From assembly GCA_964399295.1 (NCBI GenBank), contig CAYNQD010000001.1, positions 463,672 to 527,671 on the forward strand: a DNA stretch of 64,000 nucleotides, read 5' to 3'. Position numbers and translations under genes: made by a program. Below the pieces are notes generated by a model, which saw nothing but the letters and a program-made list of their open reading frames with translations, ran no database searches and had not been told where the DNA came from. The stretch comes from an uncultured Candidatus Saccharibacteria bacterium. GTDB lineage: Bacteria > Patescibacteriota > Minisyncoccia > Phycocordibacterales > UBA918. Of this stretch, positions 36,383 to 39,247 are shown piece by piece. The stretch's first letter is position 1. Every line of letters begins with the position of its first letter.

Positions 36383-37192
36383 TCAAGAACACTTCCTGGC
36401 AGCCGACAACCCGACGCCGTCGTTGCGGTTGACGCCCCAATAGCTGCCGACGTAGAGCCCGTAGGAATCGAAGCTGCCGACGTAGACACGGTCACCGTCC
36501 GAGCCGAGACTGGATGTCCTAACGTAGATGCTTTCGAAGAGTCGGACACCACGAACCTCGAAATAAGTCGTGGTGAACCAGCTCATCTCGGCGGCGTTCG
36601 GCACCTTCTCGAGTGCGGAGAGAAGCTTGCCCTGCTCGTTCCACGTCTTGCTGGTCGAGTTTTGGATGGGCGTCTTCTTGATCATGAGCCACCCGAAAGA
36701 CGTCTTGTCCTCGCGGGCGAACTTCTGATCGGCATACCACCCACCCGTCTTCGAGTAGAAGTGGGCGGATTGGATCTCCCGAACGTCGAGCAGTGACATC
36801 GCCGTGGGCGGTGCGGGCATGACGGCGTAACCGTTTTCCTTGCACCACTTGAGCACGTCCAAGGGCGGCAGACTTTCGGCGAGTGCCGTGATCTGTTCGA
36901 CGGTGTAAACGATGCTCGGGCGAGCCTCGGTGACTTCCTCGGGCGTAATGAAATCCGCGGCGAGGATTGACTGTGCCAGACCGTAGTCGGGCGCTTTGGC
37001 TGAGAAGCGACGGATGCCTTCTGCGAGATACACGGCGAAGCCGGGATGCTCGTTCAGGATCTGTGCGCTTTCGTCGTTGAGTCCCGCCTTGTTGTATTGG
37101 GCGCGGAACGTTTCGGTAGCTCTCTGTCCTTTCGGACTGTCTGCGGTTACCAGTGCAGACGTGTTCAATGTTTTCATCGACATCATCTCCAT
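36383..37192 (-). CDS. DGR target (variable) protein; C-terminal variable region VR at 36395..36509
   Basis: The last ~38 codons (..LGSDGDRVYVGSFDSYGLYVGSYWGVNRNDGVGLSAAR) are a 115-bp near-repeat of the TR at 37632..37746, with mismatches concentrated at TR adenines. GC-rich relative to its surroundings. Confidence 0.75.
   Translation of the reverse strand: MEMMSMKTLNTSALVTADSPKGQRATETFRAQYNKAGLNDESAQILNEHPGFAVYLAEGIRRFSAKAPDYGLAQSILAADFITPEEVTEARPSIVYTVEQITALAESLPPLDVLKWCKENGYAVMPAPPTAMSLLDVREIQSAHFYSKTGGWYADQKFAREDKTSFGWLMIKKTPIQNSTSKTWNEQGKLLSALEKVPNAAEMSWFTTTYFEVRGVRLFESIYVRTSSLGSDGDRVYVGSFDSYGLYVGSYWGVNRNDGVGLSAARKCS
36395..36509 (-). repeat. DGR variable region (VR)
   Basis: 115 bp; 14 mismatches against TR, 12 at positions where TR has A. 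The identical GC-rich 3-prime end gcgtcgggttgtcggctgccagg (IMH-like) is followed by an 8-bp-stem/3-nt-loop hairpin cgaatgct-ggg-agcattcg at 36346..36364. Confidence 0.75.
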
Positions 37193-37631
37193 TTGCTGAT
37201 TTACCGAGAACGCTCGGAACGACTTGCCTCAGTTTGAGACGAGCTTTCTAGGCCCTGAATGTAAGGCTCAAAAAGCTCGTCTCAACAATGATTCTCTATC
37301 AAAGAACACCCATATAGTATAGCAAATAAATGGCTATTTGTCAATGATTTTGGCGACCTGTCGACTATCGGTTATACTATGAATATCATGCTAATGTAGC
37401 TTGGATTACGGTTCAAGCTCGCGAGATATCTCACCTTGAGATATCGCCAGATTGCCAGTGGTTTATGGATCACGGCAGAGCGCGATTAAGGATAGAGAGA
37501 ACTTCTTGCTCGCTTCTAGAGGAGATGCTTTGAAAGAGGCTGCTTCCGAATAAAATTCAGAGATGAGAGGATATAGACCTGCAAAGGTAGTAAGCCTCAA
37601 GTCTCGGTGACATAGACGGAAGCGGGCAATA

Positions 37632-37746
37632 TCTCGACTCGGACGGTAACCGTGTCAACGTCGGCAACTTCGATTCCGACGGGCTCAACGTCAACGGCTA
37701 TTGGGACGACAACCGCAACGACAGCGTCGGGTTGTCGGCTGCCAGG
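37632..37746 (+). repeat. DGR template region (TR), rich in AAC codons
   Basis: TR sense (+ strand) matches the reverse complement of VR. TR AAC/GAC/AGC codons correspond to TAC/GGC/AGC/GAC/GTC in VR. Confidence 0.75.
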
Positions 37747-37794
37747 CAGTCAAACTCTATCCAAGGAAACTCCCGTCAAAAACGGGAGTTTCTG

Positions 37795-38145
37795 TTAACG
37801 ATCCTTCGTTGACTTGATCCACCCTCCGAGCATCCTCCCTATTTCGTCAAGATTGGCTTCGATGATGATGTATTTTTTAGCATCAATCGCTTTTACATCT
37901 TTCATGAGGCGAATGCAGACTCGCAGAAAATTAAGTTTGACGCTCGTCTTCTCCAAGGTCGGCAGCTTATCTGACTTAGACTGCTGGCTTGCGAAAATTA
38001 TACCTTCTAATACATCGATTAGTAGACTTTCGCATTTTTGCCAGAGCGTGTAGCGATCTTGCTTTGGAACGGATAGGCGCAGATTATAGAAATCTTTGTA
38101 GAGATCGTAGCTCTTCTTGAAAATTGGTATATCTAAATCATTCAT
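37795..38145 (-). CDS. avd: DGR accessory variability determinant-like protein (four-helix-bundle family, TIGR02436-type)
   Basis: MNDLDIPIFKKSYDLYKDFYNLRLSVPKQDRYTLWQKCE ... EIGRMLGGWIKS matches the four-helix-bundle/Avd family. Confidence 0.7.
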   Translation of the reverse strand: MNDLDIPIFKKSYDLYKDFYNLRLSVPKQDRYTLWQKCESLLIDVLEGIIFASQQSKSDKLPTLEKTSVKLNFLRVCIRLMKDVKAIDAKKYIIIEANLDEIGRMLGGWIKSTKDR

Positions 38146-39247
38146 ATGAAAATTTATAAGAATTTATACTGGTCAATAATTTCTCCTCAGTCCCTATTTA
38201 GGGCTTGGGAGATATTTAAGTCCGACAAAAGGAACAAGCCTGACGTTGCCGAGTTTGAGTTGAACATCGAGCAGAATATCTTCGATCTGTATCGCGATTT
38301 GAAGAATGAAACATATCGGCATGGGCCATACAAAGGATTTTGGATACACGATCCGAAAATCAGACGGATACATAAAGCGGCTGTTCGAGATCGAGTCCTT
38401 CATCACACTACTTTTGCTGTTTTGAATAAGATATTCGAGCCGACTTTTATCGACGATTCGTATTCGTGTCGTATCAATAAAGGTACTCACAAGGGTGTGG
38501 AGAAAGTTGCCAATATGCTTCGTGCAGCGAGCAAAAATAATACTCGCCAATGCTACGCTCTGAAATGCGATGTGAGAAAATTCTTTGATTCCGTCGATCA
38601 CCAAGTGCTTAAAGACATCCTTAATAGGAAAATCAAGGATCAAAAGACGATTTCTCTTCTGGAAGAAATTATTGAGAGTTACGAGAAAAGCGGAACTACG
38701 AGAGAGAGAGAGAGAGAGAGAGAGAGAGAGTAAAACGCTGTCGCTTTTTACTATAAATACCAATAAAGGGGTGCCCATCGGCAACCTGACTTCGCAGATT
38801 TTTGCCAACATTTATATGAACGAGTTTGATCAATTCGTTAAGCATGGACTTCGTGTGAAAAATTATGCGCGATACACCGACGATTTCATGATTATATCAG
38901 AAGACAAGAAGTATCTCGAAGAATTGTTGCCGAAATTGCAGGAGTTTCTGAGAGAAAAACTGAAACTCGAATTACATCCGAACAAGATATCTATTCGGAA
39001 ATTCCATGAAGGTATAGATTTCCTCGGGTATGTGATATTTCCACATTACCGACTGCTACGAGCGAAAACCAAAAAGAGGGTTTTGAGGAATATACGCAAG
39101 AAAATGGCGTGCTATCAGAAAGGTCTGATTCCTGAAAATCACTTACATCAAAGCATGCAGTCTTACTTAGGTGTTTTGTCCCACACGAACACTTACGAGC
39201 TGACAGAGAATTTGAAGAACCAATATTGGTATTGGCTTAAAGAATAA
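38146..39247 (+). pseudogene. DGR-type reverse transcriptase, reading frame interrupted by an (AG)15 repeat (track ORFs 38146..38733 and 38585..39247)
   Basis: RT motifs 1-3 in the first ORF (RRIHKAAVRDRVLHH; FIDDSYSCRINKGTHKGV; ALKCDVRKFFDSVDH). In the second: DGR-diagnostic motif 4 (PIGNLTSQIFANIYMNEFD), catalytic YTDD (YARYTDDFMII) and motifs 6-7. The frames differ by +1 across the repeat. Confidence 0.75.
38701..38730. repeat. (AG)15 dinucleotide simple-sequence repeat inside the RT gene
   Basis: Read directly: acg(ag)15taa. Encodes (RE)n in either frame; one added repeat unit or two removed units would fuse the two RT ORFs. Confidence 0.9.

What the first reader, a model, noticed from the sequence alone, without database searches (positions are those of the whole stretch)
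36383..39247. Complete diversity-generating retroelement (target-VR, TR, Avd, RT) inside a tRNA-Gln island
A 115-bp segment at the 3-prime end of the minus-strand gene 36383..37192 (VR, 36395..36509) is a near-copy of 37632..37746 (TR). There are 14 mismatches, and at 12 of them the TR base is adenine (TR AAC, GAC and AGC codons correspond to TAC, GGC, AGC, GAC and GTC in VR). That is the signature of adenine-specific mutagenic retrohoming. The TR is rich in AAC codons with A at codon positions 1 and 2. The last 23 bp (gcgtcgggttgtcggctgccagg, IMH-like) are identical in both copies. An 8-bp GC hairpin with a 3-nt loop follows VR at 36346..36364. Next to the TR are an Avd-family four-helix-bundle gene and an RT carrying the DGR-diagnostic IGxxxSQ motif 4 (PIGNLTSQ) and a YTDD catalytic motif. 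The target protein ends with ...YWGVNRNDGVGLSAARKCS and is otherwise unrecognisable.
Basis: partly seen in the sequence, partly recalled or inferred. Interest (0 to 1): 0.85.

Follow-up and report, generated by a model that had tools for sequence, protein, structure and literature searches.

The report
DGR whose reverse transcriptase is microsatellite-interrupted
This is a genuine diversity-generating retroelement of the kind already known in ultra-small (Patescibacteria) bacteria, but its reverse transcriptase gene is knocked out of frame by a (GA)15 microsatellite that recurs, in-frame or out-of-frame, at the same spot in many related elements, so the mutator may itself be switchable.

Summary
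The TR/VR pair is real. It is a 119-nt inverted repeat, 89% identical.

- **TR:** seven AAC codons and no adenine at codon position 3.
- **Avd:** passes the NCBIfam DGR-Avd cutoff.
- **RT:** best solved relative is Bordetella bRT.
- **Target:** a conserved Patescibacteria family with a C-type-lectin/FGE-like fold. Its relatives differ almost only at TR-adenine codons.

The cassette is not "complete". The RT is split into two frames by a (GA)15 tract at 38700-38729, the only dinucleotide repeat of 5 or more units in the 64 kb.

The same pure (GA)n tract, 4 to 25 units long, sits in a predicted disordered loop of many related RTs. It is in frame in some and out of frame in others, with both wrong frames seen. 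Every split RT I fetched had no other lesion. Both halves show dN/dS of about 0.04.

My best reading is a DGR gated by repeat slippage. Recent pseudogenisation and RNA-level recoding remain open.

The "tRNA-Gln island" is unsupported: no integrase, no att repeats and no DGR-free allele were found. The DGR itself is a new member of a known kind. The microsatellite gate looks like a new variant.

The parts
36383..37192 (-). DGR target gene (269 aa). It has a helical N-terminal region and a C-terminal C-type-lectin/FGE-like domain that carries the VR.
36395..36509 (-). Variable repeat (VR). It covers the last 38 codons of the target.
   Evidence: Inverted repeat with TR. 12 mismatches, 10 opposite TR adenines. 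Homologue alignment is hypervariable only here.
36395..36417 (-). IMH-like 3' end of VR, 23 nt identical to TR 37724-37746.
   Evidence: No IMH/IMH* difference is visible inside the repeat. The copies diverge only from TR 37747.
36338..36376 (-). Hairpin downstream of VR. The outer pairs are GAGG/CCTC (36338-36341 with 36373-36376). The inner 8-bp stem spans 36345-36363 with a 3-nt loop.
   Evidence: Relatives carry a 5-bp GAGGR/YCCTC hairpin at the same place, among CTTGA repeats. The inner 8-bp stem was not seen in the relatives printed.
36297..36327 (-). Intrinsic terminator of the target gene: a perfect 14-bp stem followed by a T-run.
   Evidence: (I7). Conserved in relatives.
37316..37344 (-). 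Promoter-like site for the target gene (TTGACA-17-TATACT with a TG extension, 11 of 12 matches).
   Evidence: This is a consensus match only.
37350..37389 (+). Two overlapping promoter-like sites facing TR (9 of 12 each). This is the inferred start of the TR RNA.
   Evidence: Homology with relatives L003-L005 begins at 37385.
37632..37746 (+). Template repeat (TR). In frame from 37633 it has 7 AAC and 6 GAC codons, 24 adenines, and none at codon position 3.
37765..37793 (+). 12-bp hairpin 19 nt downstream of TR, probably part of the DGR RNA.
   Evidence: Three pairs with compensatory changes among 7 close relatives. A strong hairpin at the same place, with unrelated sequence, occurs in most of the roughly 60 related loci printed.
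37795..38145 (-). avd (116 aa). Its start codon abuts the RT start codon (CAT|ATG).
   Evidence: Pfam bAvd. NCBIfam DivGenRetAVD 86.5 bits, cutoff 80. 0 non-synonymous against 36 synonymous differences to lineage L005.
38146..38733 (+). RT, N-terminal reading frame (195 aa; Pfam RVT_1 profile positions 8-106). It stops at TAA immediately after the tract.
   Evidence: dN/dS 0.026 against lineage L005.
38700..38729 (+). (GA)15 microsatellite that shifts the RT frame by +1. A length of (GA)16 or (GA)13 would give a 367- or 365-aa RT.
   Evidence: Only dinucleotide repeat of 5 or more units in 64 kb. The same pure tract occurs in relatives with 4-25 units, in frame or in either wrong frame. Codon usage shows a DNA-level repeat.
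38729..39247 (+). RT, C-terminal reading frame (PIGNLTSQ, YTDD, thumb). This frame is open from 38585.
   Evidence: dN/dS 0.038 against the intact relative L008.

Best explanation
This is a chromosomal diversity-generating retroelement of the Patescibacteria (CPR) clade.

**Inferred mechanism, by analogy with characterised DGRs.** A plus-strand RNA starting near 37390 carries TR and its 3' hairpin. The RT, together with Avd, copies TR into cDNA and misreads adenines. The cDNA replaces VR (36395-36509) at the 3' end of a minus-strand gene. This recodes up to 22 codons on the ligand-binding face of a C-type-lectin-fold domain.

**Shown.**
- All the sequence parts listed above are present.
- Mismatches are biased to TR adenines.
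- The target has the expected fold.
- Relatives with identical protein backbones carry different VRs.
- In this genome the RT gene is out of frame at a (GA)15 microsatellite that encodes a predicted disordered (Arg-Glu)n loop just upstream of PIGNLTSQ.

**Inferred.** The tract acts as a slippage-prone gate. Gain of one unit or loss of two units restores a full-length RT. The change could happen in the DNA (phase variation) or, less likely, in the RNA. Mutagenic retrohoming would then be off, or only leaky, in most cells and on in a subpopulation.
For: **DGR identity**
- TR/VR repeat with 10 of 12 mismatches at TR adenines, P about 7e-6.
- Seven AAC codons and no adenine at codon position 3.
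- Avd is above the NCBIfam equivalog cutoff.
- The RT's best solved relative is Bordetella bRT 8ub7, E 1.9e-41, against 1.6e-18 for the best group II intron RT.
- 111 of 172 loci scanned (the window segment included) have an adenine-biased repeat.
- The target fold matches TvpA, Mtd and TaqVP.
- Target homologues with 0 of 224 or 1 of 224 differences outside VR differ at 14 of 37-38 VR residues.

**The microsatellite gate**
- The frameshift is present in the window and, with the same total length, in an independent ENA assembly of a lineage with dS about 0.6-0.8.
- All seven C-terminal RT fragments I looked up traced to abnormal RT genes. Six lineages are split exactly at a pure (GA)n tract of 8 to 24 units, and the seventh (L173) lacks the N-terminal half.
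- With the window, four lineages have offset +1 and three have offset +2.
- Neither half carries any other lesion.
- Two split lineages, L175 and L176, show dN/dS of 0.036 and 0.039 in the N and C halves.
- Relatives down to 56% identity carry the tract in frame.
- Within the tract, Glu is GAG in 58 of 58 codons and Arg is AGA in 51 of 58. Elsewhere in these genes the figures are 41% and 26%.
- Split fragment P0295 is 97.7% identical to in-frame P0002.
- The loop is disordered in a model of an in-frame homologue, with pLDDT below 50 at residues 182-197.
- The loop is an insertion relative to bRT residues 171-175.
Against: - No in-frame allele of the window's own lineage was found in the protein collection. 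The best full-length hit is 88% identical.
- Only one VR version of this strain was seen.
- Tract length is identical between contigs that differ by 0-0.2% (L177-L180, L181/L182). It is also identical between the window and L005 despite dS of about 0.7. Rapid switching is therefore not shown.
- VR carries one unexplained non-adenine change (37678). The TR has lost four adenines relative to relatives. Both fit a period of inactivity.
- The breaks in k=31 contigs inside the tract could be PCR or sequencing stutter rather than real polymorphism.
- My sample of split genes was chosen from fragments, so the ON:OFF ratio is not unbiased.
Confidence: 0.55

Rival explanations
1. The DGR is decaying. 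The (GA)n tract is only a mutational hotspot in a tolerant loop. Out-of-frame alleles, including this one, are recent dead ends. The TR/VR differences are a fossil of past activity.
For: - The RT is out of frame in the consensus of every assembly that crosses the tract.
- No ON allele of this lineage was found.
- VR carries one non-adenine mismatch, and the TR has lost four adenines relative to relatives.
- Relative L004 has a VR with about 13 non-adenine mismatches, so decay does occur in this group.
- L173 has lost the RT N-terminal half.
Against: - The split lineages examined carry no second lesion in either half.
- Avd shows 0 non-synonymous against 36 synonymous changes, and the RT N-half shows dN/dS of 0.026, between two lineages that share the out-of-frame tract.
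- L175 and L176 are both out of frame, yet both halves have dN/dS of about 0.04.
- The tract stays pure over deep divergence.
Confidence: 0.22
2. The gene is expressed constitutively by recoding. RNA-polymerase slippage or ribosomal slippage on the (GA)n tract yields a small, steady amount of full-length RT from an out-of-frame gene. An example is a -2 shift of tRNA-Glu from GAG to GAG at the TAA stop. The tract would then be an attenuator, not a switch.
For: - All three frames of (GA)n encode poly(Arg-Glu). A -2 slip re-pairs perfectly and enters the AGT AAA ACG (S K T) frame.
- Related lineages keep the same offset despite different tract lengths: window and L172 are both +1, and L175 and L176 are both +2 with tracts differing by 6 nt.
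- Tract length is stable among near-identical contigs.
- There is strong purifying selection in out-of-frame lineages.
- There is a precedent. The Quimbyvirus DGR RT is encoded in three overlapping frames and its VRs still show adenine-specific substitutions (PMC8008677).
Against: - Both wrong frames occur, and so do many in-frame alleles. That is not what one fixed programmed frameshift predicts.
- The TAA directly after the tract is absent in L174.
- From my own knowledge, efficient polymerase slippage is documented for homopolymer runs, not for dinucleotide repeats. I did not test this here.
Confidence: 0.18
3. The frameshift is an assembly or sequencing artefact, and the element is the complete, constitutively active DGR that the first reader described.
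For: Microsatellites are error-prone in short-read data. Contigs assembled with k=31 break inside the tract.
Against: - The same out-of-frame length appears in an independent MEGAHIT assembly of a 10%-diverged lineage.
- Other out-of-frame tracts are identical across four samples (L177-L180) and across SPAdes and MEGAHIT assemblies (L181/L182).
Confidence: 0.05

Closest known systems
Patescibacteria/CPR diversity-generating retroelements (the 'CPR set' of Wu et al. 2018, PMC5758913; DGR clade 2 of Roux et al. 2021, PMC8144416)
   Same: - RT clade: 5218 homologues, almost all from Patescibacteria MAGs.
- An Avd accessory gene is present.
- AAC-rich TR.
- VR at the C-terminus of a small protein with no Pfam match.
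- Chromosomal rather than phage context. Only 5 IMG/VR contigs carry an RT 49-57% identical, and the other 14 hits are 39% identical or less.
   Different: - The RT ORF is interrupted by a (GA)15 microsatellite.
- The target gene is inverted relative to TR and RT. This arrangement occurs in 16 of 105 related loci, against 89 in the canonical direct arrangement.
- I found no mention of the tract or of split RTs in the two surveys searched.
Bordetella phage BPP-1 DGR (mtd, avd, TR, brt)
   Same: - The RT is the best PDB match (8ub7, E 1.9e-41).
- Avd four-helix bundle.
- Adenine-specific TR-to-VR differences.
- A hairpin downstream of VR.
   Different: - No IMH/IMH* difference is visible within the repeat.
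- avd is antisense, lies between TR and RT, and abuts the RT start codon.
- There is a 30-residue loop insertion where bRT has 3 residues.
- The element is cellular, not phage-borne.
Quimbyvirus (gut phage) DGR with RT in overlapping ORFs (Benler et al. 2021, PMC8008677)
   Same: The DGR RT is not encoded by a single ORF, yet there is evidence that the system remains functional.
   Different: - There, two presumed programmed frameshifts occur in a phage genome, and the authors inferred activity from adenine-site variation in the VRs.
- Here, a single break lies at a dinucleotide microsatellite. Its length and frame vary among relatives, and in-frame alleles occur.
Simple-sequence-repeat contingency loci (phase-variable genes of Neisseria, Haemophilus and Campylobacter)
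   Same: A pure short-unit repeat lies inside an ORF. Its length differs among relatives and moves the downstream frame among all three states, while the rest of the gene stays intact.
   Different: - Those loci mostly encode surface or restriction-modification proteins. Here the gated gene is the polymerase of a targeted hypermutation system.
- Within-population switching has not been shown here.
- Tract length is stable at 0.2% divergence or less.

Membership tests
Diversity-generating retroelement | TR/VR near-repeat whose differences fall at TR adenines | tested here: met
   10 of 12 mismatches are at adenines, which make up 21% of the TR. Binomial P 6.8e-6.
Diversity-generating retroelement | TR adenines placed at codon positions 1 and 2 (AAC-rich) | tested here: met
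   7 AAC and 6 GAC codons. Adenines by codon position: 9, 15, 0.
Diversity-generating retroelement | RT of the DGR clade with the [LIV]GxxxSQ motif and a YxDD catalytic motif | tested here: met
   PIGNLTSQ and YTDD are present. The best PDB relative is bRT, E 1.9e-41, against 1.6e-18 for the best group II intron RT. The RT falls below the cutoff of every non-DGR RT model in NCBIfam. No formal phylogeny was built.
Diversity-generating retroelement | RT encoded as an intact ORF | tested here: not met
   There is a +1 frame break at the (GA)15 tract, 38700-38729. The same state is seen in the independent assembly L005.
Diversity-generating retroelement | Accessory protein (Avd) | tested here: met
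   NCBIfam DivGenRetAVD 86.5 bits, cutoff 80. Pfam bAvd 3.5e-17.
Diversity-generating retroelement | VR lies in a C-type-lectin or Ig-like scaffold at the target C-terminus | tested here: met
Diversity-generating retroelement | IMH in VR distinct from IMH* in TR | tested here: inconclusive
   The last 23 nt are identical. The copies diverge only after the repeat ends. A 5-bp hairpin, GCTGC-CAG-GCAGT, forms at the TR end only.
Diversity-generating retroelement | Inverted repeat or hairpin downstream of VR | tested here: met
   An 8-bp stem at 36345-36363 sits inside a GAGG/CCTC hairpin that is conserved in relatives.
Diversity-generating retroelement | Ongoing adenine-specific VR diversification in the population | not testable with these tools
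   No read data were available, and only one VR version of this strain was seen. In relatives, identical backbones carry VRs differing at 14 of 38 residues.
SSR phase-variable (contingency) gene | Pure short-unit repeat inside the ORF whose length changes the frame | tested here: met
   (GA)15 here, and 4-25 units in relatives, with all three frame states seen. GAG is used in 58 of 58 tract Glu codons and AGA in 51 of 58 tract Arg codons.
SSR phase-variable (contingency) gene | Length polymorphism within one population, with reversible ON/OFF switching | tested here: inconclusive
   Contigs assembled with k=31 break inside the tract from both sides in at least 6 samples. This could be stutter. 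Tract length is identical in contigs 99.8-100% identical.
Programmed ribosomal frameshift gene | One conserved shift direction at a conserved slippery site | tested here: not met
   Both the +1 and +2 offsets occur, along with in-frame alleles. The stop codon after the tract is not conserved in L174.
tRNA-associated genomic island | Integrase, flanking direct repeats of the tRNA 3' end, and an empty site in related genomes | tested here: not met
   No integrase is present among the ORFs from 33 to 43 kb. The only repeat is 30 nt at 77% identity (D2). All contigs carrying the neighbouring pyrG have the same arrangement. Relatives carry the cassette in unrelated contexts, twice next to a recombinase or transposase. 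The cassette therefore moves, but integration at this tRNA is not shown.

The most novel reading that the evidence does not exclude
The (GA)n tract is a selected contingency switch. In a whole clade of Patescibacteria DGRs, the hypermutator's polymerase would itself be turned on and off by microsatellite slippage. Targeted protein diversification would then be stochastic and heritable at the population level, a second-order evolvability control not described for DGRs in the papers I could search.
Probability: 0.35. Interest if true: 0.75.

Novelty: new variant of a known kind. Interest (0 to 1): 0.55.

Why it matters
DGRs are the only known natural system of targeted protein hypermutation in prokaryotes, and they are especially common in Patescibacteria. 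How their activity is regulated is largely unknown.

A recurrent frame-shifting microsatellite inside the RT would give a simple, testable on/off or dosage control. It would also explain why many metagenomic DGRs appear inactive or carry truncated RTs.

It also has a practical consequence. DGR finders that require an intact RT ORF will miss or mis-score such elements. In one search, at least 32 of 119 C-terminal RT fragment clusters began at this tract.

The DGR itself is an ordinary member of the CPR clade.

Tried and rejected
1. **Second VR or target in the window.** None was found (BLAST of the TR and tblastn of the target against the window).
2. **Rfam.** Nothing but tRNAs reached the gathering threshold. 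Only chance-level hits appeared in 35850-39600 at E up to 1.
3. **Sequence search of the target against Pfam, NCBIfam and the PDB.** No hit. Only the fold comparison worked.
4. **The 262-aa neighbour (35099-35887) as a cassette component.** Rejected. It is absent from all related loci.
5. **A single programmed frameshift.** Rejected as the sole explanation once split genes with the +2 offset were found.
6. **A phage origin.** IMG/VR holds only 19 related RTs. The five closest are 49-57% identical.
7. **The Paul et al. 2017 paper on CPR DGRs.** It could not be read. The library does not hold it.
8. **A DGR-free allele of this site.** The exact look-up of pyrG returned only identical contigs, which end in the tract.
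9. **An unbiased ON:OFF ratio.** Not obtainable.
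Full report
**1. The observation**

The repeat is real. Arms 36391-36509 and 37632-37750 form a 119-nt inverted repeat, 89% complementary. In register over the 115-bp core there are 12 mismatches. 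Ten have A in the plus-strand copy (TR) and two have G (37678 G>T, 37696 G>A).

Adenine is 21% of the TR, so 10 of 12 has binomial P = 6.8e-6. Read in the target's frame from 37633, the TR has 7 AAC and 6 GAC codons and no adenine at codon position 3. The last 23 nt are identical in both copies.

No further VR or target paralogue exists in the 64 kb.

**2. The genes**

| Gene | Coordinates | Evidence |
|---|---|---|
| Target | 36383..37192, minus strand, 269 aa | |
| avd | 37795..38145, minus strand | Pfam bAvd 3.5e-17; NCBIfam DivGenRetAVD 86.5 bits, cutoff 80 |
| RT | plus strand, starts at 38146, directly abutting the avd start codon (CAT\|ATG) | |

The RT is not one ORF. The first frame runs 38146..38733 (195 aa; Pfam RVT_1 profile positions 8-106). 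The second frame is open from 38585 to 39247 (RVT_1 positions 111-205, including PIGNLTSQ and YTDD).

The break is a (GA)15 tract at 38700-38729. It is the only dinucleotide repeat of 5 or more units in the window. One extra unit, or two fewer, gives a continuous RT of 367 or 365 aa.

The repaired protein's best solved relative is the Bordetella DGR RT (8ub7, E 1.9e-41). The best group II intron RT scores 1.6e-18.

**3. The frameshift is not an artefact**

An exact look-up of the Avd protein gave seven contigs. Four are identical to the window and end inside the tract. Three come from ENA assemblies of a lineage about 10% diverged in nucleotide sequence.

One of these, L005, crosses the tract. 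It reads TA(AG)16 where the window has CG(AG)15. The total length is the same, and the N-terminal ORF stops at the same TAA.

Between the two lineages:
- Avd has 36 synonymous and 0 non-synonymous differences (dS 0.82).
- The RT N-half has dN/dS of 0.026.

**4. The tract across the family**

The RT belongs to a very large Patescibacteria clade: 5218 hits at E <= 1e-20, with a typical length of 349 aa.

*In-frame alleles.* Many members carry an (Arg-Glu)n insertion about 15 residues before PIGNLTSQ, and others have none. At the DNA level these insertions are pure (GA)n:
- 4 units in the 88%-identical relative L008;
- 12-13 units in L011, whose RT is 56% identical;
- up to 25 units in L122.

*Out-of-frame alleles.* A search with the C-terminal part returned many RT fragments on long contigs. 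At least 32 of 119 begin with the +1-frame translation of the upstream RT followed by (RE)n.

I looked up seven fragments that start after the tract, and so are unbiased for frame. Six lineages are split exactly at a pure (GA)n tract. The seventh, L173, has lost the N-terminal half.

| Frame offset | Loci and tract length |
|---|---|
| +1 | window (GA)15, L172 (GA)8, L174 (GA)24, L181/L182 (GA)11 |
| +2 | L175 (GA)9, L176 (GA)12, L177-L180 (GA)10 |

*Evidence that the gene is still under selection.*
- Neither half has any other stop or frameshift.
- L175 and L176 are both out of frame. Their dN/dS is 0.036 (N half) and 0.039 (C half), with dS of 0.4-0.8.

*Evidence that this is a DNA repeat, not selection for an Arg-Glu peptide.* Inside tracts, Glu is GAG in 58 of 58 codons and Arg is AGA in 51 of 58. 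Elsewhere in the same genes the figures are 41% and 26%.

*Change over short distances.* Split fragment P0295 is 97.7% identical to in-frame P0002.

*The loop tolerates length change.* In a model of the in-frame homologue P0092 (pLDDT 85.9), the loop at residues 182-197 has pLDDT below 50. In bRT the corresponding stretch is 3 residues long.

*Against fast switching.*
- Tract length is identical among contigs 99.8-100% identical from different samples.
- It is also identical between the window and L005.
- Contigs assembled with k=31 break inside the tract from both sides in at least six samples. This could be real heterogeneity or stutter.

**5. The target and evidence of DGR action**

The target has no Pfam or NCBIfam match. 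It has 320 homologues, up to 88% identical, mostly from Patescibacteria.

In the alignment of its 90% cluster, the first 229 residues are nearly invariant. Variation is confined to the pattern SSLxSxGxRVxVGxFDSxGLxVxxYWxxxRxxxxGLSAARK, and the variable positions are the TR-adenine codons.

| Pair | Differences outside VR | Differences in VR |
|---|---|---|
| P0243 / P0249 | 0 of 224 | 14 of 38 |
| P0246 / P0247 | 1 of 224 | 14 of 37 |

. This is family-level evidence of recent mutagenic retrohoming. For this strain, only one VR version was seen.

**6. RNA and DNA elements**

- A 12-bp hairpin at 37765-37793 follows TR. It shows three compensatory pairs among seven close relatives. A strong hairpin at the same place, with unrelated sequence, occurs in most of the roughly 60 related loci printed.
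- After VR, relatives share CTTGA repeats, a 5-bp GAGGR/YCCTC hairpin and a terminator. The window has an 8-bp stem (36345-36363) inserted into that hairpin.
- Promoter-like sites face outward from 37316-37389. A strong one faces the target, and two weaker ones face TR. These are consensus matches only.

**7. Architecture**

Among 105 related loci with a detected pair, VR is direct and about 480 nt upstream of TR in 89. It is inverted in 16.

The window and its 84%-identical relative L008 share the inverted form. The closer lineage L004 has the canonical form. However, its VR is decayed, with about 13 non-adenine mismatches.

The window's TR differs from the TR of L003-L005 at four positions. 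All four are A in the relatives and G here. This explains one of the two non-adenine mismatches (37696). It also suggests that the TR itself has lost adenines.

**8. The island claim**

- There is no integrase among the neighbouring ORFs.
- The only tRNA-like repeat is 30 nt at 77% identity.
- No empty site was found.
- The target and TR are GC-rich (58%), against about 40% for RT and avd and 43% for the window. The same contrast holds in relatives L008 and L011, so it is a property of the gene family and not a sign of recent import.
- Relatives carry the cassette in unrelated contexts.

**9. Interpretation**

I am about 95% confident that this is a DGR of the known Patescibacteria clade.

The RT is out of frame in the consensus. 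Four facts argue against simple decay and for restoration by slippage:
- both halves are under strong purifying selection;
- there are no second lesions;
- the tract is pure and recurrent;
- all three frame states occur among relatives.

Whether restoration happens in the DNA (phase variation, my preference) or in the RNA or on the ribosome cannot be settled here. Recent pseudogenisation remains possible for this particular strain.

**10. Literature**

Two DGR surveys that cover CPR elements do not mention the tract or split RTs in the passages searched. No paper in the library combines DGRs with simple sequence repeats in this sense. The nearest precedent is the Quimbyvirus RT, which is encoded in three overlapping frames.

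Noticed in passing
window 36284-37385, compared with L004 865-1172: The whole target module (promoter, gene, terminator) is inverted relative to the closest diverged lineage, L004. There, VR and TR are direct repeats 486 nt apart. Homology breaks at about 37385 and 36284. Relative L008 shares the window's inverted form. Among 105 related loci, 16 are inverted and 89 are direct.
   Followed up: partly
window 37693-37727 (TR), compared with the TRs of L003-L005: The window's TR differs from the relatives' TRs at four positions. All four are A in the relatives and G here (AAC>GGC, AAC>AGC, ATC>GTC). The TR itself seems to have lost adenines. Possible causes are VR-to-TR conversion or cDNA homing into a TR whose 3' end is identical to that of VR.
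   Followed up: partly
window 37738-37750: A 5-bp hairpin, GCTGC-CAG-GCAGT, forms at the very end of TR. It is conserved in 7 relatives. The corresponding VR sequence (GCTGCCAGGAAGT) cannot form it. This may be what distinguishes donor from recipient in the absence of an IMH/IMH* difference.
   Followed up: no
window 36330-36395 and the equivalent region in about 20 related loci: Four to five CTTGA motifs are spaced about 10 nt apart between the target's stop codon and its terminator. They are conserved across relatives whose surrounding sequence differs. Their function is unknown.
   Followed up: no
window 38143-38148: The avd and RT start codons abut back to back (CAT|ATG) with no intergenic space. 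The promoter of each gene must therefore lie inside the other gene, or RT must be read from the TR transcript running antisense through avd. Spacing of -2 to +20 nt is conserved in relatives (L008, L174, L177).
   Followed up: partly
window 36383-37192 and 37632-37746: The target gene and TR are 58-60% GC in a genome of about 43% GC. RT and avd are about 40% GC. The same contrast holds in L008 (55.5% against 41%) and L011 (60% against 43%).
   Followed up: partly
window 35942-35957 and 36042-36057: An exact 16-nt direct repeat, AGGTGTCTCGGTCTCT, flanks 84 bp in the gap between the 262-aa ORF and a small ORF. It has no Rfam match and is unexplained.
   Followed up: partly
window 36115-36249 (minus strand): A 44-aa, very basic ORF (MDHLRVVPPEEMAQREEERKAKDEARRIRREKVKSARKSRPKRK) is called as a gene on contig L001. 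It is absent from the related DGR loci.
   Followed up: partly
L181/L182 1-16; L175 1882-3134: In two relatives the cassette lies next to a large serine recombinase (L181/L182) or next to an rve-family transposase with an HTH gene (L175). This hints at how the cassette moves between genomes.
   Followed up: no
window 47014-47024 and 4891-4899: A G11 and a C9 homopolymer run are the other long simple repeats in the window. I did not check whether they lie in coding sequence.
   Followed up: no
window 30579-31376: A 265-aa ORF sits in a stretch of 54-57% GC amid flanks of about 35-40% GC. It may be a separate horizontally acquired gene and is unrelated to the DGR.
   Followed up: no
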